Part shown: one piece after another, positions 2,301 through 40,919 of the stretch
How the letters are laid out: each line of letters begins with the position of its first letter
Position numbering within the stretch: the stretch's first letter is position 1
Origin: Octopus vulgaris
Lineage: Eukaryota
Reading direction: 5' to 3'
Length of the DNA: 64,000 nucleotides
NCBI GenBank assembly: GCA_951406725.2
Contig: OX597840.1
Span: 12,152,001-12,216,000 of the forward strand
Notes under the pieces: model-generated
What the model saw: the letters and a program-made list of their open reading frames with translations, nothing else
Database searches by the model: none
What the model was told of the DNA's origin: nothing
Position numbers and translations under genes: made by a program

Positions 2301-3103
2301 TCCCACATTCCCATCTTTGCTCTACACACACACTGATATATGTATATGTATATATATATATCATCATCGTCATTTAACGTCCGCTTTCCATGCCGGCATG
2401 GGTTGGACGGTTCAACTGGGGTCTGGGGAGCCCGAAGGCTGCACCAGGCCAGTCAGATCTGGCAGTGTTTCTACAGCTGGATGCCCTTCCTAACGCCAAC
2501 CACTCCGAGAGTGTAGTGGGTGATTTTATGTGCCACCGACACAGGTGCCAATGCACACACACAGCTATTTGACACACTTCTTTAATTTTCCATCTATTAA
2601 ATCCACACACATGGCTTTGATTAGGTCAGTAAGGTCACATTCCAATGACTGAAACCTAGAATTCTCACTGTTTTTATCTCATCTTCTTAAGTATGCTATA
2701 TATCTTATTCCGTTTCTCTTTTTATTTCAGAACCTCAGATGACATTGACAGAGAGAATATTTCACTTTGGTATCCTGGAAGATAGTATTCAGAACAGATA
2801 GAACGGATGCATGGATTTACATAAATCTTTGAGGAATTCTATTGAAATTTCTTTTGTAAACAAATTTCTCAAACATCACTGTTTGGAATGAGTGCAAGAT
2901 TTTTGGATTCCAATTAAAGTTGAATGAATTTGCATCGACTTTAGATATCAACAAAGATCACTGCAGATGGAAATATAGGTGTTAAAACATTTGTGATTAA
3001 ACTATAAATACATCTATATATATATCTATAGTTTTGATAGAGGAGAAATTATTTAAAAATCTATTTGAGAAAGTGAAAGGACGGAGTTTAGTTTCCTCAA
3101 GAG

Positions 3104-8790: not shown

Positions 8791-9342
8791 CACACACACA
8801 GCTATTTGACACACTTCTTTAATTTTCCATCTATTAAATCCACTCACATGGCTTTGATTAGGTCAGCATGGCCACATTCCAATGACTGAAACCTAGAATT
8901 CTCACTGTTTTTATCTCATCTTCTTAAGTATGCTATATATCTTATTCCGTTTCTCTTTTATTTCAGAACGTCAGATGACATTGACAGAGAGAATATTTCA
9001 CTTTGGTATCCTGGAAGATAGTATTCAGAACAGACAGAACGGATGCATGGATTTACATAAATCTCTGAGGAATTCTATTGAAATTTCTTTTGTAAAAAAA
9101 ATTTTTCAAACATCACTGTTTGGAATGTGTGCAAGATTTTTGGATTCCTATTAAAGTTGAATGAATTTGCATCGTCATTAGATATCAACAAAGATCACTG
9201 CTGTTGGAAATATAGGTGTTAAAATATTTGTGTTTAAACTATAAATACAACTATATATATATATCTATATTTTTGATAGAGGAGAAATTATTTAAAAATC
9301 TATTTGAGAAAGTGAAAGGACGGAGTTTAGTTTCCTCAAGAG

Positions 9343-15106: not shown

Positions 15107-15887
15107 TAGATCGTTAGCTCCTACACGCATTTTTTTCTCTCCTTGTTTTTTTTCTGTGTATCTTTCTGTCGAAGAGCGTGGGATCGAAACGTAAAAGACT
15201 TTTTCTATTTCTATTCCTGAGCGCTATACTAATACATTTGTTTGTTTGTACTCCACCTGCCTTCGTCTTTTGTTTATTTTCGTAAACTTTCCCGTTATAT
15301 ATATATATATATATACATACATACATCTACACACACACACACAGCTATTTCTCAGACGACAGGCTTCATTCAGTTTCCATCTATTAAATCCACTCACATG
15401 GCTTTGATTAGGTCAGCATGGTCACATTCCAATGACTGAAACCTAGAATCCTCACTGTTTTTATCTCATCTTCTTAAGTATGCTATATATCTTATTCCGT
15501 TTCTCTTTTATTTCAGAACCTCAGATGACATTTAAAAGTAGAGAATATTTCACTTCAGTATCCTGGAAGATAGTATTCAGAACAGACAGAACGGATGCAT
15601 GGATTTACATAAATCTTTGAGGAATTCTATTGAAATTTCTTTTGCAAACAAAATTTCTGAAAAGTCATTGTTTGGAATGTGTGCAAGATTTTTGGATTCC
15701 TATTAAAGTTGAATGAATTTGCAGCATCTTTAGATATCAACAAAGATCACTGCTGATGGAAATATAGGTGTTAAAATATGTATGATTAAACTCTAAGTAC
15801 AACTGTATATATATAGTTTTGATTGAGAAGAAATTATTTAAAAATTATGTGAGAAAGTGAAAGGACGGAGTTTAGTTTCCTGAAGAG

Positions 15888-21540: not shown

Positions 21541-21773
21541 CGCCAGAATGGCTTACACACACGTATTTATTTCTGTCATTAGACGGCGGTCATGCTGGAA
21601 CACCAGCTCGAAGTGTTTCTATCGAACGAACCAACCGCAAGACTTATTCTTTGTAAGCGTAGTAGTTATTCTATCGGTTAGTTTTTCCGAACCGCTAAGT
21701 TACGGGGACGTTAACACACCAACATGGGTTGTCAAGTGATGGTGTCTCTCTCTCACTCACACACACATATATA

Positions 21774-21804
<31 letters not shown>

Positions 21805-21912
21805 GGCGGGCTTCATTCAGTTTGTCTATTAAATCCACTCACAAGATATGAATATGCACATACACATACATGTGTGTGTATTATATATATATGTATGTAT
21901 GTGGGGACAGCC

Positions 21913-22380
21913 ATGTTTGAGAAATCTCGAGTTGCACATGAGAAAGTAAGGAGGGATGTCAGGAAGGGCATCGCTGTTACACTTCCAGAAGGGAAGGGTC
22001 TTCCTTTGATGCTGACATGCAATGTCTGTGCAAGACCCTGCCTCAGCAAAGCTGGACTCAAGAGTCATCTTCGTTTTCATAAAGCGAGACAGATGAGTGA
22101 CAACCTGGCCACTGGTGGTGGTGTTACACACCATACTAATCATATCTGTCAGGCATGTGGAAGAGAGTGTAATTCGGCAGGAGGACTTAAACGGCATGCA
22201 AAGGTACATGAAACCCAGTTACAACTACAGCCGGCTATTGCCAGTAAAGGTTTTAGCTGCCAATTCTGTACAAGAGATTGTAGATCTTTGGCTGGGCAAA
22301 AAAGTCACATTCGATCACAGCACCAGTAACAGTTAAGCTTCGTGCAATGGCCATACTCGATAACGAGGGGGCAGCCATAA
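21913..22380 (+). mobile_element. RTE-like LINE 3' end encoding three C2H2-like fingers (open 138-aa frame 21913-22329)
   Basis: FEKSR..EK.RR..RK followed by C..C.R.C.S..GL.SH.R.H motifs typical of RTE ORF C-termini. Confidence 0.7.
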
Positions 22381-24531: not shown

Positions 24532-25191
24532 TCAAGTTACAATAGATAATGATTTGCCACAGGTGTCACAATGATATGGATTGTCTCCCATATGAATGAG
24601 TTGGTGCCTGTTTAAGTGACTTGCTAAAGAGAATGATTTACCACAGATATCACATTTAAAAGGTTTGATTCCTGAATGGCTACGTTTATGTTTAGTTAAG
24701 GTACTTCCTTCTGAGAAAGATTTACCACAGACATCACAGTGATATGGCTTTTTTCCTGTATGAATGTTCTGATGTGCAGTCAAGTGGCTTTTTCTAGAAA
24801 ATGATTTATCACACACATCACAGTGAAATGGCTTCTCTCCTGTATGAAAGTACTTGTGTTCAGTTAAGTGACATTTTTGATAGAATGTTTTGCCACAAAT
24901 ATCACAGAGGTATGGTTTTTCTCCTGTATGTGTACGTTTGTGAGTTGTCAAGTGACTTCTTTCAGAGAATGATTTATCACAGACATCACAATGATATGGT
25001 TTCTCACCTGTATGCACGCGTTTGTGTCTAATTAAGAGATTATTTTGAGAAAAGATTTTACCGCAAACATCACAGTGATGAAGCTTTGCTTCTTTGGGAG
25101 TTCGTCTGGGAGTCAAGATGTTACGTTTTCGAGAAGATGACTTTTCACAGATATCACTACTGTCTGTTGATTTCCCTGTCTTTTCTGCCAT
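24532..25191 (-). CDS. C2H2 zinc-finger protein A4 (219 aa, 6 fingers), inverted copy
   Basis: Same architecture on minus strand; acceptor at 25574-25575; promoter module at ~27650-27940 on minus strand. Confidence 0.9.
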   Translation of the reverse strand: MAEKTGKSTDSSDICEKSSSRKRNILTPRRTPKEAKLHHCDVCGKIFSQNNLLIRHKRVHTGEKPYHCDVCDKSFSERSHLTTHKRTHTGEKPYLCDICGKTFYQKCHLTEHKYFHTGEKPFHCDVCDKSFSRKSHLTAHQNIHTGKKPYHCDVCGKSFSEGSTLTKHKRSHSGIKPFKCDICGKSFSLASHLNRHQLIHMGDNPYHCDTCGKSLSIVT

Positions 25192-26603
25192 CTCTTGAGG
25201 AAAATAAACTCAATCCTTTCACTTTCTCACATAATTTGTTTTTAAATAATTTAATAATTTCTCCTCTATCACAACTATATATATACAGTTGTACTTATAG
25301 TTTAATCATACATATTTTAACACCTATATTTCTAACAGCAGTGATCTTTGTTGATATCTAAAGATGCTGCAAATTCATTCAACTTTAATTAGAATCCAAA
25401 AATCTTGCACACATTCCAAACAATGACTTTTCAGAAATTTTGTTCACAAAAGAAATTTCAATAGAATTCCTCAAAGATTTCTGTAAATCCATGCATCCGT
25501 TCTATCTGTTCTGAATACTATCTTCCAGGATACTGGAGTGAAATATTCTCTCCTGTTAATGTCCTTTGAGGTTCTGAAATAAAAGAGAAATGGAATAAGA
25601 TATATAGCATACTTAAGAAGATGAGATAAAAACAGTGAGAATTCTAGGTTTCAGTCATTGGAATGTGGCCATGCTGACCTAATCAAAGCCATGTGAGTGG
25701 ATTTAATAGATGGAAACTGAATGAAGTCTGGCGTCTGAGAAATAGCTGTGTGTGTATGTATGTATGTATGTATTTATGTGTGTGAAGCAAAGATGGGAAT
25801 GTGGGAAAATATATATGGAAAATCCTAGAAGGGCTGGCACTAAACTTTGGCATCAAGAGTTGTACCAGCCCCCAAACAGGTCATCATTGCATTATTCCAA
25901 GGGTCCCACCCATCCTGTCAAGAATAAGGACCAGATACAGCAGTACCTTGGGATTTGAAGGCCCCCAGTTATTAAATATCTTGCCAAGAAAAACCTTAGA
26001 GAATTACATGCAATAGCTGCAGCAGATATTTTCAAGAAACACCTTGAGCTTCTGCAGTCCAAGATCCCAGATGAAGCTACATCAGGACAAGGAACACAAA
26101 CAAGGGTAGTAATCTCAAACTCACCCTTTCACTGAATAGGTGAGGATACTGGTGGTGACCCAGCATGGTTGTGTGTGTTTCTATTTGTCTCCCACTTGAC
26201 AATCGTTGTTGCTTTGTTTACATCACTGTAGCCTAGTGGTTCAGCAAACAAGGACCAAGAGAATAAGTACCAAGTTGATTTAGTTCTGTTAATCTTTTGC
26301 TTATCACTTCTTTGTCATTAGACTGCAGCCATGCTAGGGCACCACCTTCAATCTTTTTTTTTGGCTCGGGTCAAACACTATAGTTTAGAGGCCATGTTTT
26401 GACAATGTGAATTTTCCGAGGCCTCTCCCCCACCCTGTTCACGAGTGCGCGTTCTTTTTTTTGTTTTTTTCATATTCGTTTAGAGCAAGTTGTTTTACAC
26501 CTATTACACTATTTTTCCTTTGTTTCTTGGCGACTCGGAACATTCACGATGTGAATTTTCGGAGGCCTCTCAACCATGTTTCTTTTTTCATATTCCTTTA
26601 GAG

Positions 26604-27940: not shown

Positions 27941-29344
27941 ATAAATGTAAACACAAACATAAACGTTGTGATGTATGAACGGCTTACACACATACATTAA
28001 CCTGTCATTAGACGGCGGTCATGCTGGAACACCAGCTCGAACTGTTTCTGTCGAACGAACCGACCCTAGTACTTTTGTTTGTTTTTTCTTTATATAATAA
28101 TAAAGATATTCAGGCGATCGGTATAGGTACACACGTGACATTGTTTACAAGATAAGAGAAACCCTTTTCTCCCACTCCTAACACAAACCCTAACCCCCCA
28201 TATATATATATAAAAAAAAACAAACACTTTCTTGAAATGTATCCGGTACTTCCGGTACCTATACCGAAGTTACGCTGATTATTTATTCTGTCGATCTATT
28301 TTTGCAGAAGCGCTAATTTCCTGGAACGCAAACAAGCACCGGTTGTCAAGCAGTGTTTGGTAACCAACACAAACATTCACGGCCATGCTGGAGTCTTTTA
28401 CTTGTTTCAGTCATTTGACTGCGGCCATGCTGGAGTACCGCCTTTACTCGAACAAATCGACCCTAGGACTTATTTTTTGTAAGCCTAGTAGTTATTCTGT
28501 CGGTCAATTTTTCCGAACCGCCAAGTTACGGGGACGTAAACTCACCAACATCGGTTGTCAAGCAATGGCGGGGAGACAGGCACAGACACACATATATATA
28601 CACTGATATATATATATATATATATACATACACACACAACACACACTTTCCCCTCATCCATCACCCTCTTGTACTGTCTTATATTCCTCCCCACCACTAC
28701 AAACTCAATACCACTATAAAATGGTCAAACCATTTCACACAGGAACTTAGTTTGATTTGAAAACCCCACTAGAATGGGAGAAAGCGCTAATACATGATCT
28801 AAGTTATATGATGTATAAAAAATATAATATACAAATAAATATCTGTAAATATAAACCATCCGATTTTCTGAGTACCTCATTTCTCCTAATATAAAATACC
28901 TGTACATCATCTCCAAACCTTCAAATATATATCTATATATATACTCTTTTCTCTTTTCTCTTTACTCTTTTACTTGTTTCAGTCATTTGACTGCGGCCAT
29001 GCTGGAGCACCGCCTTTAATCGAGCAACTCGAGCCCGGGACTTATTCTTTTTGTAAGCCCAGTACTTATTCTATCGGTCTCTTTTGCCGAACCGCTAAGT
29101 AACGGGGACATAAACACACCAGCATCGGTTGTCATTGGGACAAACACAGACACACAAATACACACACGCATATATATATACATATATACGACGGGCTTCT
29201 TTTCAGTTTCCGTCTACCAAATCCACTCACAAGGCTTTGGTCGGCCCGAGGCAATAGTAGAAGACACTTGCCCAAGGTGCCACGCAGTGGGACTGAACCC
29301 GGAACCATGTGGTTGGTAAACAAGCTACTTACCACACATATAAT

Positions 29345-32146
29345 CAGGTGTACGGTTCTTGGAAGCAAGGGATGTAAGGTTTCCCTTAAAAAATTATAGA
29401 AATAAAATTGAAACTATATTACTTATTTTTCATAAGATCATTCTAATGCTTTGTAAGATTAACATAAACCACATGACATGACAGACTTTTATTGTCGGAA
29501 TTAGCATGAGACAACAAGCAGCGGTAGTCGACGAAAAAAACCTGTACAAGGGAAGCAACACGGGCTGTTGCATCCCGTTCGGTGTAATATTTTAACAATT
29601 TTTTCCTAGTAAAAGCTGATAAGGATTAGTTTTAGAGGTTAATGATTTTAGATGCTAATAAGTACTTATACGCTTATATTACGTTTCTGTCAATTCGCGA
29701 TACCTATGATATATATATATAATCTTACTTTGTTAAGTAACGCATAGGAAAAAGGAAGCAAGTTGACATTCTGCTTCCGTCAGCAAAACGGTGAAAAGAT
29801 AACGCGTGTAGTTTCTGCGTTTATTCAACTAATATTTTATACTTTTCCAAATTACAGAACACCCTTAATATAAAATGGACGTGAAAAGGAATTGCGTATC
29901 AAGTCAGTGTAACTGCGTAATTGAAAGTTTGTTGAGTAACAAGTTTTCTTCGAGAACTTACGCTGAAAAAGTATGTACTGTTCAAAGGGGTAGACCAATG
30001 CCTGATGTTTCTTTAACGAGTAAAGCAAAAAATTGTATTCGAAAGTTTAGCAAAGTGCAATATGAGAAGACTAAGTGGTTAGCAGCTTGTTCTGGCTTCA
30101 ATAAATTTTACTGTTGGCCCTGCCTGTTATTTAACAACGAAAGAGGTACGTGGAATTCATATGGATTTTCTGATTTAAATAATTTGCATAAAGCCATTAA
30201 AAGACACGAGCTATCTTCTTCTCATTTAACATCAGTGATTAATTTAACAAGATTCGGAAAAACGCGTACTGATTTTTTATTAAACAGCCAACATCGAAAG
30301 AATATTGAGACTCATAATGAAAAAGTAAAGAAAAATAGGGAGATCTTAAGACGATTAATTGATGTAGTTTGTTTTTTAAGTGAGCAACAACTCGCATTCA
30401 GAGATCATGAAGAATCAGCTGATCCTGATAATGAGGGTAATTACGTTGAAATACTCCACCTCTGTAAGAAATACGATCCTATATTATCAAATTTGCAAGA
30501 GGCAGGCATTTTTTCTGACACTTCAAACAGATTTCAAAATGATTTAATAAATAGCGTGGCTGAAGTTCTTTTAGAAAAGATTAAATCGGAAATTAACGAT
30601 TCAACATTTGTGGCTATTATTTTAGATGAAGCGAGTGAAATTAGAACTGGAGCACAACTTTCATTTGTTGTAAGATATGTTTTAAGTGACGGTAATATTG
30701 CAGAAAGATTTTTAGGATTTTTAAACGTAGGTTCTGATCGTACAGCAAGTGGTTTGTCAAAGATTGTGTTCGATAAAATAGAAGAGTTAAAAATTGGTCA
30801 TAAGTTTGTGGCTCAAACTTATGATGGTGCAAGTGTGATGTCAAGCGAATTAAATGGTTTGCAAAAGAAAGTTAAAGAAAAGTATCCTAATGCTTTTTTT
30901 GTTCATTGTATGGCCCATAGATTAAATCTAGTTCTGTCTCAAGCGGCTGCAAATATTCAAGAATGCGATAAGTTTTTTTCACAGATAAAGTCTTTTTCGT
31001 TATTTTTTTGTAAGTTGACCAAACGCGTGCATCAATTCGATACTGAAATTAAAAGGCATTTTCCAAAAGTGGCGCCAACTGACTGGAACTTGAATCATTC
31101 GTTGGTAGAAACAGTACGTGAATATCATGAGAAACTTGCTGATTTATTCCTAAACATCATTGATAATTCAAGTAAATGGGATACAGAAAGCTATACCTAT
31201 GCTCAGGCGTTGTATTCTAATTTACAAAATTGTGAATTCAATTTTTTGTTAAATGTGTTTGGAGATATTTTTATTTGCACAAATACAGCATTTGACATCC
31301 TCCAGACAAAACCATTTGACGTATCCTACTGTGTTCATACAATAAATGAAATTGTGAAAGTTTTGAAAGAAAAAAAGCATGATTTTCCTAAATTTTGGGC
31401 TAACGTTGATGGCATTTATCCTCAAATAAAGAAAAGAAAAACTGCTTTTGAAACAGAAGAAGAAAGATACAGGCAGCTGTTCTACAAAATTATAGATTTA
31501 ATTTGCGAGCAAATTGAGATAAGATTTCAAAATTTAAATGAATTACATTTTTTAGCGCTTCTCGATCCAATGAGACAGAGTAACAACGTCCAGGAAACAT
31601 CTTTAACTTCCCTTAAACATTCCTATGAAGACTATTTCGACAGCCAAAAGTTAAGAAGCGAACTTACTGCTTTGTACAAAGATGCTGAACTGAAAGGAAA
31701 ATCCGTTCAAGATTTACTTTGCATTCTGCATAATAGTGGATTAGATGAAGCTTTGCCCCAGTTAACGAAGCTTTGTGAATTAATATTAACACTACCAACA
31801 AGTGCTACATTGGAGCGCTCTCTTTCATACCTAAGCAGAATTCATAATTATACAAGAAATTCGCAGGGACAAGAAAAGTCGAGCAGTTTAGCTCTAATTG
31901 GCATAGAAAAAGCCGTTTTAAAAAGCATTAAGAACGATAGCTTCTACAATGATGTTATCAACAATTTCAACAAGAAGCAGAGAAGGATTGAATTAATATT
32001 TAAATAAAATAGGTAAGTTTTAATTGTGATTTCGTTTATTTTGAAAATAGCTGTATAATATGAACATGTCAATTTGATTCAAAATATCTATGACAGAAAA
32101 TTTTGGTCATTGCTTCACCAGCCAGAAAGATTACCACACGCCCCTG
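29345..32146 (+). mobile_element. Probable extent of hAT element around the transposase ORF, with degenerate termini
   Basis: Left CAGGTGTACGGT vs right end reverse complement CAGGGGCGTGTGGT; subterminal GGAAGCA/TGCTTC motifs at ~29361, 29552, 29754-29778, 32111; 8-bp flanks (catataat / attataca) do not match. Confidence 0.55.
29875..32007 (+). CDS. hAT-family transposase-derived protein (ZMYM1-like/Tip100-type; TTF zinc finger, DUF4371-like region, RNaseH-like core, hATC dimerisation region), 710 aa
   Basis: WL...YCWPCLLF...HELSSSH; AFRDHEE; ILDEASE; QTYDGASVM; HCMAHRLNL; LTLPTSATLERSLS; uninterrupted ORF. Confidence 0.9.
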   Translation: MDVKRNCVSSQCNCVIESLLSNKFSSRTYAEKVCTVQRGRPMPDVSLTSKAKNCIRKFSKVQYEKTKWLAACSGFNKFYCWPCLLFNNERGTWNSYGFSDLNNLHKAIKRHELSSSHLTSVINLTRFGKTRTDFLLNSQHRKNIETHNEKVKKNREILRRLIDVVCFLSEQQLAFRDHEESADPDNEGNYVEILHLCKKYDPILSNLQEAGIFSDTSNRFQNDLINSVAEVLLEKIKSEINDSTFVAIILDEASEIRTGAQLSFVVRYVLSDGNIAERFLGFLNVGSDRTASGLSKIVFDKIEELKIGHKFVAQTYDGASVMSSELNGLQKKVKEKYPNAFFVHCMAHRLNLVLSQAAANIQECDKFFSQIKSFSLFFCKLTKRVHQFDTEIKRHFPKVAPTDWNLNHSLVETVREYHEKLADLFLNIIDNSSKWDTESYTYAQALYSNLQNCEFNFLLNVFGDIFICTNTAFDILQTKPFDVSYCVHTINEIVKVLKEKKHDFPKFWANVDGIYPQIKKRKTAFETEEERYRQLFYKIIDLICEQIEIRFQNLNELHFLALLDPMRQSNNVQETSLTSLKHSYEDYFDSQKLRSELTALYKDAELKGKSVQDLLCILHNSGLDEALPQLTKLCELILTLPTSATLERSLSYLSRIHNYTRNSQGQEKSSSLALIGIEKAVLKSIKNDSFYNDVINNFNKKQRRIELIFK

Positions 32147-32593
32147 ATTATACATACATACATACACGTAAAAAGCACCAACCGATCGTGGCCGTTTGCC
32201 AGCCTCCTCTGGCCCCTGTGCCGGTGGCACCCACTACACTCATGGAGTGGTTGGCGTTAGGAGGAGCATCCAGCTGTAGAAACACTGTCAGATCAGACTG
32301 GAGCCTGGTGTAGCCTCCTGGCTTCCCAGACCCCGGTCGAACCGTCCAACCCATGCTAGCATGGAAAACAGACGTTAAGCGATGATGATACATACACACA
32401 TACATGCATGACGGGCTTCTTTCTGTTTCTGTCTTGCAACTCCACTCACAAAGCTTTGGTCAGCCCGAGGCTATAGTAGGAGACGCCCAAGGTGCTACGC
32501 AGTAGGACAGAACCACGAAACCATGTGGTTCAGAGGCAAGCTTCTTACCACACTGCCAACCATTGTTATGTGTGTGTGTGTGTATATATATAT

Positions 32594-33129
32594 GAGTTAC
32601 CTTCTCCTAGAAGGATGCCCTAACAAAGGCTAAGAGTCCTTCACTCCCAATGGTTTAACCGCGCGATCGCGAGAAATCTCGAGTTGCATATGAGAAAGTA
32701 AGGAGGGATGTCAGGAAGAGCATCGCTGTTACACTTCCAGAAGGGAAGGGTCTTCCTTTGATTCTGACATGCAGTGTCTGTGCAAGACTCTGCCTCAGTA
32801 AAGCTGGACTCATGAGTCATCTTCGTAGTCATGAAACGAGACAGATGAGTGACAACCAGGCCACTGGTGGTGGTGTAACACACCATACTAATTATATCTG
32901 TCGGGCATGTGGAAGAGAGTGTAATTCGGCAGGAGGACTTAAACGACATGCAAAGGTACATGAAGCCCAGTTACAACTACAGCTGGCTATTACCAGTAAA
33001 TGTCTTAGTTGCTAATTTTGTACAAGACATTGTAGATCTTTAGCTGGGCTAAAAAGTCACATTCAATCACAGCACCAGTAACAGTTAAACTTCGTGCAAT
33101 GGCCATACTCGATAACGAGGGGGCAGCCA

Positions 33130-37170: not shown

Positions 37171-38229
37171 AATGATTTGAAAATTTAGAATACTATTGGA
37201 CTCTTTTTAGATATACCACCAGAAACAACATCCATCTGTCTCTTCAAAAGTACTATTTATTCTTCTACAGTTCTCCACGACATATCGCAGTGAACAAGGA
37301 TCTTCAGTTCTGGCAAAACTGAGGGAAAGGCTTTGTGTTGATGAGGAGGTGAGAGTTTGTTTATCTCAAATTAGGCCTAATATAAAGGAGATTACTCGAC
37401 AAAAACAAGTTTATACCTTGCATTAAATTTGTGTACTTTAATCATATCATAAGTTTTTTTGTGTTATATATTATGTTTAACGAACTATTAATTGTTTTTT
37501 TTTTTAAATTTTAAATGCATTTCTATCACTTAAAATTTGGTGAGGCATGAGCAAATTTTCATTCTGAAAACGCGGCCCAAAGAAAAAAATGTTGGGGAAC
37601 CACTGATCTATTCATTATTGTTGGTCTTTGGTGAAGGAATAAGTTTGATATTTCTGCCCTCGTTTGAGTTTTTTGCCAAGATGTAGGTTCATTTGGGATC
37701 TTGGACAAGGTGCTTCTTGAAAATATCTACTGCTACAGCATATAGATGTGTCAGGTTTTTTTTTGGCAGCATATTAAATAGCCATGGGTTTTGAATCCCA
37801 AGGTATTGGTTGTTATCTGGCCCTGTTGTTATATGATGGGTGAGACCTTTGGAACAATGCAGTGATGTTCTGTTCAGGGGTTGGTATAACTTTTGATGTC
37901 AAAGTTTGGTGCCAGCCCCTCTAGGACCTTTAATATGTATATTACCACATATGTCTCCTCTTTGCTCCACACACACACACACACATCATCATCATCTGTT
38001 TCCATGCTGGCATGGGTTGGATGGTTTGACAGGCTCCACTCTGATCTGGCAGAGTTTCTACAGCTGAATGCCCTTCCTAACACCAACCACTCCAAGAGTG
38101 TAGTGGGTGCTTTTTACATGCCACCAATATGGGAGCCAGTCAGGCAGAACTGGCAATGACCCACTCATGAATGATACTTATTGCATACCACCAGCATGGG
38201 AGCCAGTCAGGTGGCACTGGCATTGGCCA

Positions 38230-39810: not shown

Positions 39811-40307
39811 TAAACCAGCCAAATATGTATAGGCTTTATGAGATATGTAGACTACAATCACTTAATTACATAAAGCAGTCTCCAATAGTCCAGCTAACTC
39901 TCTCCTATATCTTATTCTCTTTCTCTTTTATTCCAGAACATCAGATGACATTGGCAGGACAGAATATTTTTACTTCAGTATCCTGGAAGATAGCATACAG
40001 AACAGATGCATAGATGAGGAATTGCATTGAAATTTCTTTTGTAAACGAAATTCCTCAAAAGTCACTGTTTGGCTGTTTGGAATGTGTGCACGATTTTTGG
40101 GACATAATTAAAGTTGAATGAATTTGCAGCATCATTAGGTATCAACAAAGATCACTGCTGTTAGAAATATAGGTGTTAAAATATGTATGATTAAACTATA
40201 AATACAACTATATATATATATATATATATATATAGTTTTGATAGAGGAGAAATTATTTAAAAATCTATTTGAGAAAGTGAAAGGACGGAGTTTATTTTCC
40301 TCAAGCG

Positions 40308-40919
40308 ATGGCAGAAGTGACAGGGAAATCAACAGACAGTAGTGATATCTGTGAAAAGTCATCCTCTCAAAAATGTAACATCTTGACTCCCAAACGAACT
40401 CCCAAAGAAGCAAAGCTACATCACTGTGATGTTTGCGGTAAAATCTTTTCTCAAAGTAACTACTTAGTTACACACATACGTGTACATACAGGTGAGAAAC
40501 CATATCACTGTGATGTCTGTGGCAGATCATTCTCTGAAGGAAGTCATTTGACAACTCACAAACGTACACATACAGGAGAAAAACCATATCTTTGTGATAT
40601 TTGTGGCAAAACGTTCTATCAAAAATGTCACTTAAACGAACACAAGTACTTTCATACGGGAGAGAAGCCATTTCACTGTGATATCTGTGATAAATCATTC
40701 TCTCGAAAAAGCCACTTGACTTCACATCAGAACATTCATACAGGAGAGAAGCCATATCACTGTGATGTCTGTGGTAAATCTTTCACAGAAGGAAGTACCT
40801 TAAGTAAACATATACGTAGCCATTCAGGAATCAAACCTTTTAAATGTGATATCTGTGGTAAATCATTCTCTCGGACAAGTATCTTAAAAAATCACAAACT
40901 CATCCATACAGGAGATTAG
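40308..40919 (+). CDS. C2H2 zinc-finger protein A5 (203 aa, 6 fingers; earlier TAG removes the truncated 7th finger)
   Basis: Same architecture; GGAGATTAG replaces GGAGACAAT of paralogues; acceptor ending at 39936. Confidence 0.88.

What the first reader, a model, noticed from the sequence alone, without database searches (positions are those of the whole stretch)
29820..32020. Intact hAT transposase ORF packaged like a single exon, with decayed ends and altered catalytic-support motifs
Seen: a 2.1-kb stop-free ORF, while every other TE coding sequence here is broken. A branch-like CTAAT, pyrimidine tract and ACAG| end at 29857, 17 nt before the ATG. A consensus donor AG|GTAAGT starts at 32013, 5 nt after the stop. 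Termini are poorly matched and no TSD is visible. D (LDE), D (YDG), CxxH and E (ERS) are retained, but the family TRW reads TDW, FRGH reads FRDH and ERSFS reads ERSLS. Established: the RW pair is needed for hairpin processing in Hermes-type hATs, and hATs have been domesticated repeatedly (ZBED genes and others). Inference: a host-domesticated, probably non-cutting DNA-binding protein inside a ZNF cluster.
Basis: partly seen in the sequence, partly recalled or inferred. Interest (0 to 1): 0.72.

Follow-up and report, generated by a model that had tools for sequence, protein, structure and literature searches.

The report
Tamed hAT transposase gene in octopus
An old cut-and-paste (hAT) transposon lodged between two zinc-finger genes of an octopus keeps the family's only full-length transposase frame, which changes mostly silently between two species and is spliced onto the neighbouring gene's leader exons, so it is likely a young host gene of an already well-known kind.

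Summary
The 710-codon frame (29875-32007) is real. It is a Buster-type hAT transposase: DUF4371, a Hermes-like predicted fold, and the DDE, CxxH and Trp residues all kept.

By comparison with paralogues the element spans 29345-32146. Its inverted repeats are decayed at CpG sites and it has no convincing target-site duplication.

All other copies in this 2.8-Gb genome are 78-94% identical, broken, and mostly one internal-deletion derivative. The 5' half of the frame exists at only one other, broken place.

A 710-aa protein differing at 10 residues is annotated in Octopus sinensis. A 91%-identical one without the N-terminus is annotated in O. bimaculoides.

Against a ~99%-identical species, 14 of 23 classified differences in the frame are synonymous, where 21-28% is expected under neutrality (dN/dS about 0.16). 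An intact frame is very unlikely by chance (P about 4e-6 to 2.5e-3).

The donor at 32012|32013 is used in two species and joins leader exons of the downstream C2H2 gene at 37271 and 39937. The proposed acceptor at 29857 is not used in 3 of 3 long contigs that cross it.

The FRDH, TDW and ERSLS changes are confirmed and are derived in the window/O. sinensis lineage. Loss of cutting is untested.

Verdict: a likely lineage-specific domesticated transposase, a new member of a known kind.

The parts
29345..32146 (+). Whole Buster-type hAT element (2802 bp), the only full-length copy of its family in this genome
   Evidence: Homology with paralogues starts at about 29338-29345 and stops at 32143-32146. 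A paralogue contig of run X5 leaves the stretch exactly at 32146 (loose end). Genome search.
29345..29358 (+). Left terminal inverted repeat (CAGGTGTACGGT..), decayed
   Evidence: Paralogues read (C/T)AGGCGTGCGGT here. Against the right end, 9 of 12 positions match plus a 2-nt indel, and the mismatches sit at CpG positions of the paralogue form.
32131..32146 (-). Right terminal inverted repeat (reverse complement CAGGGGCGTGTGGT..)
29457..29874 (+). Element's 5' subterminal region; the contigs that carry the frame begin inside it (about 29457 in run X17, 29594 in X3, 29794 in X5)
   Evidence: table 8 and the X17 loose end at 29641. Contig ends are not mapped transcription starts.
29829..29857 (+).
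   Evidence: The sequence is present. The 3 of 3 long contigs crossing it are unspliced, and no listed joint ends at 29858 (the joint tables were cut).
29875..32007 (+). Transposase frame of 710 aa: N-terminal CWPC..H..H zinc finger, DUF4371/RNase-H-like core, helical insertion domain, hAT dimerisation region
   Evidence: Model pLDDT 82.6 with the top 7 fold matches all Hermes.
32008..32018 (+). Splice donor AG|GTAAGT (cut 32012|32013), used in two species
   Evidence: The X5 and X17 contigs leave the window at 32010 and continue, after two letters, into 37271.. and 39937...
37271..37349 (+). Leader exon A of the downstream ZNF gene (acceptor ..ttcttctacag|, donor GAG|gtgaga); joined to the transposase exon in run X5
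   Evidence: Unique within the window. One paralogue elsewhere on the same contig.
39937..40138 (+). Leader exon B of the downstream ZNF gene (acceptor ..ttattccag|); joined to the transposase exon in run X17. The 3' end at 40138 is read from the sequence only
   Evidence: The 28-nt match is unique in the whole genome at up to 2 mismatches. Paralogous exons lie upstream of 4 other ZNF exons in the window.
40306..40919 (+). Coding exon of the downstream C2H2 ZNF gene (ATG at 40308)
   Evidence: zf-H2C2_2 E 3.6e-49.
29729..29823 (-). Likely antisense exon in the element's 5' region, with a minus-strand donor (CAAA|GTAAGA in the window). In run X5 it is joined to a paralogue-type exon B
   Evidence: X5 record 20 and the loose end at 29730; best window matches 25547-25574(-) and 39936-39963(+), 3 mismatches each.
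24532..25573 (-). Upstream, divergently oriented C2H2 ZNF gene: coding exon 24532-25209 and its exon-B paralogue 25358-25573

Best explanation
This is the one full-length copy of an old Buster-type hAT transposon family, fixed between two divergent C2H2 zinc-finger genes, and its 710-codon transposase frame is likely kept by the host as a protein-coding gene (a domesticated transposase) in the lineage of the window species and Octopus sinensis.

Shown:
- The element spans 29345-32146, has decayed inverted repeats, and has no young copies in the genome.
- The frame is intact here, and a 710-aa protein differing at 10 residues is annotated in O. sinensis.
- Changes between the two species are mostly synonymous.
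- Contigs from two species carry the whole frame and are spliced from the donor 5 nt after the stop codon into leader exons of the downstream ZNF gene.

Inferred:
- Transcription likely starts inside the element's own 5' region, and the mRNA would take its 3' part from the ZNF gene.
- The protein, with its zinc finger, dimerisation region and DDE/CxxH/Trp residues retained, is predicted to act as a dimerising DNA-binding protein.
- Its cut-and-paste chemistry is probably weakened by R403D (Hermes R318 position), G177D, G215D and F650L. That last step is the least supported.
For: 1. Family and fold. DUF4371 scores E 9.7e-16, above its cut-off. The profile aligns CxxH, PTRWN and ERSFS with Hermes C265/H268, R318-W319 and E572. 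The predicted model has pLDDT 82.6, and fold hits 1-7 are all Hermes, at E 1e-9 to 4e-8.

2. No recent mobility.
- None of the 47 non-self genome matches exceeds 94% identity or covers the whole frame.
- The 5' half of the frame occurs at one other place only, which has 1 stop and 5 frameshifting indels.
- All 11 3'-half paralogues examined carry 1-5 in-frame stops.

3. Other species. P0122 (O. sinensis) is 710 aa with 10 residue differences. P0003 and P0123 (O. bimaculoides) are 575 and 622 aa at 91% identity. The next hit is at 47%.

4. Selection.
- 23 of the 24 differences between the window and the run X5 contigs could be classified: 14 synonymous and 9 not.
- The neutral expectation is 0.206 from paralogue pairs (828 of 4029) or 0.283 from the frame's own codons at the observed transition share. 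This gives P = 3e-5 and 1e-3.
- dN/dS is about 0.16, with S = 422 and N = 1708 sites.
- The neutral lesion rate is 0.051 stops plus 0.071 frameshifts per substitution. That gives P(intact) of 2.5e-3 for about 49 substitutions and 4e-6 for about 102.
- Both indels against run X17 are 3 nt long.

5. Expression and splicing. The X5 and X17 contigs leave the window at 32010 and continue into 37271.. and 39937.., each behind a canonical acceptor. A contig of run X13 runs colinear across 32010.

6. Synteny. The exon joined in X17 matches the window exactly over 28 nt, and that sequence is unique in the genome. In run X15, depth over the 5' half of the frame (28-95) is near that of single contigs.
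Against: - Constraint over the longer term is weak. Since the family's burst, the window's own branch (3' half of the frame) has 12 synonymous and 26 non-synonymous changes, a fraction of 0.32 against 0.22 in paralogues (Fisher P = 0.17). Its branch length of 0.048 is only a little below the shortest paralogues at 0.053-0.055.
- Against the O. bimaculoides form there are 53 residue differences in 604 aligned positions. My rough dN/dS of about 0.55 rests on an incomplete list of differences. 24 of these changes are derived in the window/O. sinensis stem and 18 in the other lineage.
- Both O. bimaculoides models lack residues 1-105, which hold the zinc finger. The gene may therefore be decaying there.
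- The donor came with the transposon, so splicing into the neighbour could be a by-product.
- With exon junctions downstream of the stop, the chimeric mRNA could be a decay target. This is an inference.
- Orthology was not shown by a contig bridging an element end into its flank.
- Three X15 contigs join 29338 to 32147/32148 with only 20-21 letters on the shorter side. I read these as other SINE copies next to a similar simple repeat, but an empty allele is not excluded.
- The runs are contigs of unrecorded kind. That they are RNA is inferred from the splicing.
Confidence: 0.65

Rival explanations
1. It is a relic autonomous copy with no host function. The frame survived through earlier selection at the transposon level plus luck, and the transcripts are promoter leakage from the element, read into the neighbour through a donor-like sequence the element happened to carry.
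For: - The donor octamer is ancestral to the family.
- The window's branch since the burst is not significantly enriched in synonymous change (12 of 38, P = 0.17) and is not much shorter than the shortest paralogue branches.
- Family-conserved residues were lost in both lineages.
- The O. bimaculoides models lack the N-terminus.
Against: - 14 of 23 differences from the ~99% species are synonymous (P = 3e-5 to 1e-3).
- Zero lesions are seen where 6-12 are expected, while every paralogue examined is broken.
- There are no daughter copies through which transposon-level selection could have acted.
Confidence: 0.17
2. Its selected role is regulatory rather than protein-coding. The element's 5' region would serve as a two-way promoter and alternative first exon for the two divergent ZNF genes, with the long frame carried along as an upstream reading frame.
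For: - Sense contigs join the transposase exon to leader exons A or B of the downstream ZNF gene.
- An antisense contig (29823 to 29730, depth 82.7 against 41.7 for the frame) joins an exon-B-type sequence, as expected for the upstream minus-strand ZNF gene.
Against: - A regulatory role does not explain the preference for synonymous change or the intact 2.1-kb frame.
- The antisense partner exon matches two window sites equally, at 3 mismatches each.
- The two roles are not exclusive.
Confidence: 0.12
3. It is a still-active autonomous transposase that mobilises the family's deletion derivatives and short MITE-like copies.
For: - The DDE, CxxH and Trp residues are all kept.
- Many non-autonomous derivatives share its ends.
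Against: - No copy is above 94% identity.
- The element's own inverted repeats are decayed at 3 of 12 positions.
- R403D lies in the PTRWN motif, where 106 of 118 relatives have R and Hermes has PTRWN.
- The paralogue tree is star-like and old, with terminal branches of 0.05-0.13.
Confidence: 0.04

Closest known systems
Buster-derived vertebrate host genes ZBED5 (Buster1) and ZBED7-9 (Buster2-4) (PMC3606216, passages read)
   Same: It is a Buster-clade hAT transposase kept as a single fixed copy, with a zinc finger, catalytic core, helical insertion and dimerisation region. The DDE triad is retained although the element no longer moves.
   Different: - This case is restricted to a few Octopus species and is much younger.
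- The inverted repeats are still recognisable.
- No zf-BED match was found in Pfam at E up to 1.
- The mRNA is spliced into a neighbouring ZNF gene's leader exons.
Hermes transposase of Musca domestica (PDB 2BW3, 4D1Q, 8EDG, 8SJD)
   Same: The predicted fold matches (Foldseek E about 1e-9; TM-score 0.49-0.56 normalised by target length, 0.37-0.42 by query length). The CxxH, PTRWN and ER(S/T)FS motifs align.
   Different: Sequence identity is 13-14%. It belongs to the Buster clade rather than the Ac clade. It reads PTDWN and ERSLS where Hermes has PTRWN and ERTFS, and no activity is known.
Kat1 of Kluyveromyces lactis, a domesticated hAT transposase that still cuts DNA (PMC4763223, passages read)
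   Same: It is a domesticated hAT protein that keeps its catalytic residues. Kat1 shows that such proteins can remain nucleases, and that the Trp equivalent to Hermes W319 is not essential whereas CxxH is.
   Different: Kat1 has a demonstrated substrate and role in mating-type switching. Nothing of that kind is known here.
'Zinc finger MYM-type protein 1-like' / DUF4371 proteins annotated across animals
   Same: The domain content is the same, at 37-47% identity over nearly the full length. Most of them are probably Buster transposases of ordinary elements (my inference).
   Different: Those keep G177, G215, R403 and F650 in 107-112 of 118 cases. The octopus protein is single-copy and evolves under constraint between two species.

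Membership tests
hAT superfamily transposase (Buster clade) | RNase-H-like DDE catalytic core with a helical insertion domain | tested here: met
   DUF4371 E 9.7e-16. D251, D317 and E647 are present in columns held by 111, 117 and 113 of 118 relatives. The Hermes fold gives the top 7 matches.
hAT superfamily transposase (Buster clade) | C-terminal hAT dimerisation region | tested here: inconclusive
   Dimer_Tnp_hAT scores 18.6 bits, below the 21.4 cut-off. However, the region aligns with the Hermes C-terminus through a family profile, and close relatives carry PF05699.
hAT superfamily transposase (Buster clade) | Short terminal inverted repeats and an 8-bp target-site duplication | tested here: inconclusive
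   The repeats were found by comparison with paralogues but match at only 9 of 12 positions. The flanking 8-mers match at 4 of 8, so no duplication is recognisable.
Domesticated (exapted) transposase gene | No recent transposition: a single fixed copy, with the other copies old and broken | tested here: met
Domesticated (exapted) transposase gene | Orthologues at the same site in related species | tested here: inconclusive
   Annotated proteins exist in two other Octopus species. The contigs of runs X5 and X17 splice into the same neighbouring gene's exons, one of which is unique in the genome. No contig was seen bridging an element end into its flank.
Domesticated (exapted) transposase gene | Purifying selection on the protein after immobilisation | tested here: met
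   Recent branch: 14 synonymous and 9 non-synonymous changes, P = 3e-5 to 1e-3. Intact frame: P about 4e-6 to 2.5e-3. The older branches are only weakly constrained.
Domesticated (exapted) transposase gene | Expression as a host transcript | tested here: met
   Spliced contigs from two species carry the whole frame. Translation was not tested.
ZBED proteins | BED-type zinc finger | tested here: not met
   No zf-BED match in Pfam at E up to 1. The N-terminal finger is of the CWPC..H..H kind shared with ZMYM1-like proteins.

The most novel reading that the evidence does not exclude
Octopus ZNF clusters repeatedly capture hAT transposases in their leader regions. Here one element supplies a two-way promoter for two divergent ZNF genes and is co-transcribed with one of them on a single spliced, two-cistron mRNA. 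The tamed transposase, still carrying DDE, CxxH and Trp, would work together with the ZNF cluster, for example as a ZNF-linked DNA-binding or DNA-nicking factor.
Probability: 0.1. Interest if true: 0.7.

Novelty: new member of a known kind. Interest (0 to 1): 0.4.

Why it matters
Domesticated hAT transposases are well known from vertebrates, plants and yeasts. Young cases in which the transposon's ends, its decayed sister copies and the new host-gene state can all still be read are rarer.

This locus gives a dated snapshot. The element became immobile before the Octopus species compared here split. It then lost several residues conserved across the family. Clear protein-level constraint is visible only in the most recent branch. 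It also shows how such a gene can acquire a 3' end, by splicing from a donor the transposon brought with it into a neighbour's leader exons.

For cephalopod genomics, it is one more link between the greatly expanded C2H2 clusters and transposon co-option. It is not a new kind of system.

Tried and rejected
- Acceptor at 29857. No listed joint ends there, and 3 of 3 long contigs cross it unspliced. The joint tables were cut (15 of 133 and 15 of 26 rows shown), so rare use is not excluded.
- The internal jumps 29863-29866 to 30893-30897 and 29877 to 32037-32039 were considered as introns. They were rejected because they lack GT..AG ends, occur in DNA-type runs, and equal the deletion breakpoints of genomic paralogues.
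- Target-site duplication. All 49 registers within 3 nt of each end were tried. The best was 6 of 8 in AT-rich sequence, which is not convincing.
- Empty-site reading of the X15 joints 29338 to 32147/32148. It was rejected as unproven because the shorter side is only 20-21 letters, made of SINE tail and simple repeat, with varied filler letters.
- Run search: no RNA holder was listed. That the X5 and X17 contigs are RNA is inferred from their splicing.
- Bridging of the element ends into the flanks in runs X15 and X13 was not seen among the rows shown.
- A complete list of differences for the ~95% species could not be obtained, because the table was cut (286 rows not shown). The long-branch dN/dS is therefore only rough.
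- The structure model gives the fold and its confidence only. No residue-level geometry of the active site could be read.
- Literature. A search for 'Hermes transposase' with 'R318' found 0 papers. 'LOC115225801' found 0 papers. The octopus/hAT/domesticated/transposase search found 3 papers and listed 2, neither about this gene in the passages or abstract start I saw.
- Earlier findings by place and by sequence returned nothing.
- Proteins shorter than 390 aa or longer than 1243 aa were not searched, so truncated orthologues in other cephalopods or fused forms may exist.
Full report
THE OBSERVATION

The window holds an ATG-to-stop frame at 29875..32007 on the + strand, 710 codons long. No other open frame outside the C2H2 exons exceeds 204 aa. 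The acceptor-like CTAAT / pyrimidine run / ACAG ending at 29857 and the AG|GTAAGT at 32012|32013 are present as described.

Pfam gives DUF4371 (E 9.7e-16, 58.8 bits against a cut-off of 32.1). It also gives a sub-threshold hAT dimerisation match (18.6 bits against 21.4). A protein search found 329 relatives at E <= 0.001 among 8000 scored candidates. Nearly all of those that carry a name are called 'zinc finger MYM-type protein 1(-like)', at 37-47% identity over almost the full length.

A family profile aligns the CxxH, PTRWN and ERSFS motifs with Hermes C265/H268, R318-W319 and E572. An AlphaFold model built on 94 sequences has mean pLDDT 82.6 and pTM 0.69. Its seven best solved-structure matches are all Hermes transposase, at E 1.3e-9 to 3.5e-8. 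The protein is therefore a Buster-type hAT transposase.

THE ELEMENT AND ITS FAMILY

The window lies in a 2.8-Gb genome at C27:12152001-12216000. A DNA search with the frame gave 48 matches. Apart from the window itself, none exceeds 94% identity and none covers the whole frame. Most begin at frame position about 1020.

In 5 of 11 fetched loci (L002, L006, L007, L009, L011) the sequence homologous to window 29338-29866 abuts directly on window about 30893-30896. The common form is thus an internal-deletion derivative. A second, shorter derivative joins about 29877 to about 32037. The 5' half of the frame exists at only one other place, C5:105381083-105386520, in three pieces. That copy has 1 in-frame stop and 5 frameshifting indels.

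Aligning the ends of the paralogues places the termini at 29345 (CAGGTGTACGGT..) and 32146 (..ACACGCCCCTG). The paralogues read (C/T)AGGCGTGCGGT and CAGGGGCGTGCGGT. The window's two ends match each other at 9 of 12 positions plus a 2-nt indel, and the mismatches fall at CpG positions of the paralogue form. The flanking 8-mers match at 4 of 8, and the best of 49 registers gives 6 of 8 in AT-rich sequence.

OTHER SPECIES

The window's own annotated protein (P0002, 669 aa, starting at M42) shares its 90% cluster with P0122. P0122 is a 710-aa 'uncharacterized protein LOC115225801 [Octopus sinensis]' that differs from the window's protein at 10 residues. P0003 and P0123 of O. bimaculoides (575 and 622 aa) are 91% identical but lack residues 1-105, which hold the CWPC..H..H finger.

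The run search listed holders from five coded organisms. Contigs of run X5 (organism B, about 99% identical) translate like P0122 except at three residues. The contig of run X17 (organism E) has 100 substitutions over 2199 nt. It also has two 3-nt indels, at the places where P0003 has a one-residue deletion and a one-residue insertion.

SELECTION

Of the 24 differences between the window and the X5 contigs, 23 could be classified. 14 are synonymous and 9 are not. None of the three A-to-G differences is explained by RNA editing: two are present in the genome-based protein P0122 and the third is also seen in DNA-type runs.

Two neutral yardsticks were used:
- Single-difference codons between pairs of broken paralogues, read in the same frame, give a synonymous fraction of 0.206 (828 of 4029 over 55 pairs, which are not independent).
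- All possible changes of this frame at the observed transition share of 0.70 give 0.283.

The excess of synonymous change has P = 3e-5 and P = 1e-3 respectively. With 422 synonymous and 1708 non-synonymous sites, dN/dS is about 0.16.

Frame integrity points the same way. Private changes of paralogues create stops at 0.051 per change. Frameshifting indels occur at 80 per 1119 substitutions in window-paralogue alignments. For the roughly 49 substitutions since the split from organism E, or the roughly 102 since the family's burst, 6 to 12 lesions are expected and none is seen. This gives P of 2.5e-3 and 4e-6.

EVIDENCE AGAINST STRONG LONG-TERM CONSTRAINT

- The paralogue tree is star-like. The window's terminal branch (0.048) is the shortest, but it is close to those of L009 (0.053) and L005 (0.055).
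- Its private changes in the 3' half are 12 synonymous and 26 non-synonymous. That is a fraction of 0.32 against 0.22 for pooled paralogues (Fisher P = 0.17).
- Against the O. bimaculoides protein there are 53 residue differences in 604 aligned positions. Polarised with the paralogues, 24 arose on the stem leading to the window and O. sinensis, 18 on the other lineage, and 6 are ambiguous.
- Combined with the 100 nucleotide differences, this gives a rough dN/dS near 0.55. The table of differences was cut, so this is an estimate only.

Protein-level constraint is thus clear for the recent branch and for frame integrity, and weak for amino-acid identity over the older branches.

THE MOTIF CHANGES

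Among 118 distant homologues, the residue counts at the changed positions are:
- Position 177: G in 112.
- Position 215: G in 107.
- Position 403: R in 106.
- Position 650: F in 112.

The retained residues are held by 111 (D251), 117 (D317), 113 (E647), 114 (C345), 117 (H348) and 114 (W404) of the 118.

The window and O. sinensis read D, D, D and L at the four changed positions. O. bimaculoides reads G, G, R and S. Paralogues show the ancestral codons: CGC for R403 (3 copies keep R, the others carry CpG-decay products), VERSFS, and FSGT. R403D needed two substitutions in one codon (CGC to GAC).

In the passages I read of PMC4763223, Hermes W182 and W319 are described as needed for efficient hairpin formation and CxxH as critical. 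The Kat1 equivalent of W319 is dispensable. The Arg is not discussed, and a search for it found no paper. The claim that the protein no longer cuts is therefore a prediction.

TRANSCRIPTS

Three long contigs cross 29857 without a break:
- X3, 29594-31365, 0 differences.
- X5, 29796-31503.
- X17, from about 29457 to 32010.

At the 3' end, both the X5 and the X17 contig leave the window at 32010. After two letters (TG and GG, where the window has AG) they continue with sequences that map to 37271-37298 (1 mismatch) and 39937-39964 (0 mismatches). Each target lies behind a pyrimidine tract and a CAG. A contig of run X13 runs colinear from 31846 to 32073. The donor at 32012|32013 is therefore used in two species. 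The donor octamer itself is ancestral to the family: exact in 2 of the 8 paralogues that align there, with GT kept in 4 of 8.

The 39937 exon has paralogues about 370 nt upstream of four other ZNF coding exons in the window, so it is a standard leader exon of these genes. The 28-nt string seen in X17 is unique in the genome at up to 2 mismatches, which supports synteny. The X5 string matches the window with 1 mismatch and matches a paralogue 3 Mb away on the opposite strand exactly. The downstream coding exon starts at ATG 40308 and is a C2H2 protein.

The stop codon lies upstream of the donor, so no fusion protein is made. The mRNA would carry the transposase frame followed by the ZNF leader and coding exons.

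One X5 contig (29823 down to 29730, depth 82.7) continues into an exon-B-type sequence in the opposite orientation. Its junction is a minus-strand donor. The best window matches are 25547-25574(-) and 39936-39963(+), with 3 mismatches each. This suggests an antisense first exon for the upstream minus-strand ZNF gene.

COMPARISON WITH WHAT IS KNOWN

The closest known cases are the Buster-derived vertebrate genes ZBED5 and ZBED7-9, which also keep the DDE triad (PMC3606216, passages). Kat1 is another: a domesticated hAT protein that still cuts DNA (PMC4763223, passages). PMC10027918 (passages) reports transposon-derived transcription factors in O. bimaculoides, including two truncated ZBED genes. 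It does not mention this gene in the passages shown, and its supplements were not read.

VERDICT

The locus is a likely lineage-specific domesticated Buster transposase, which makes it a new member of a known kind.

Noticed in passing
window 29729-29823 (-) and 25358-25573 (-): In run X5 a contig on the opposite strand of the element's 5' region joins, at a GTAAGA donor, an exon-B-type leader sequence. The element may therefore also supply a first exon to the upstream, divergently oriented ZNF gene, acting as a two-way promoter.
   Followed up: partly
window 29863-29866 / 30893-30897 and 29877 / 32037-32039: There are two families of internal-deletion derivatives of this element. One lacks the first 1020 nt of the frame. 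The other is a short MITE-like form lacking the whole frame. Both are present in the genome and in runs of several organisms.
   Followed up: partly
window 2731-2934, 8967-9181, 15517-15733, 25358-25573 (-), 39937-40138: Each C2H2 gene unit of the cluster has a paralogous ~200-nt leader exon about 370 nt upstream of its coding exon. The coding exons start with a nearly identical [12 protein letters not shown].. N-terminus (94-98% nucleotide identity over 114 nt).
   Followed up: partly
window 28940-29338 and 32165-32620: Extremely abundant SINE-like repeats abut both ends of the element, with summed contig depths of 1e5 or more in RNA-type runs. They prevented contigs from bridging the element ends into the flanks.
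   Followed up: no
proteins P0026, P0077, P0103: In a beetle, a pipefish and a lamprey, relatives of this transposase are annotated as single proteins of 957-1132 aa that also carry C2H2 zinc fingers. Buster-plus-C2H2 fusions therefore exist elsewhere. Here the stop codon before the donor prevents such a fusion.
   Followed up: no
window 32003-32008: A canonical AATAAA overlaps the stop codon, just upstream of the donor, so an unspliced, locally polyadenylated transcript form is possible. This was not testable with contigs.
   Followed up: no
window 21715-22329 (+) and 32659-33015 (+): Two related open frames of 204 and 118 aa carry C2H2-like CxxC..H..H repeats (..CNVCARPCLSKAGLKSHLR.H..). They belong to another repeated element and not to the ZNF gene family.
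   Followed up: no
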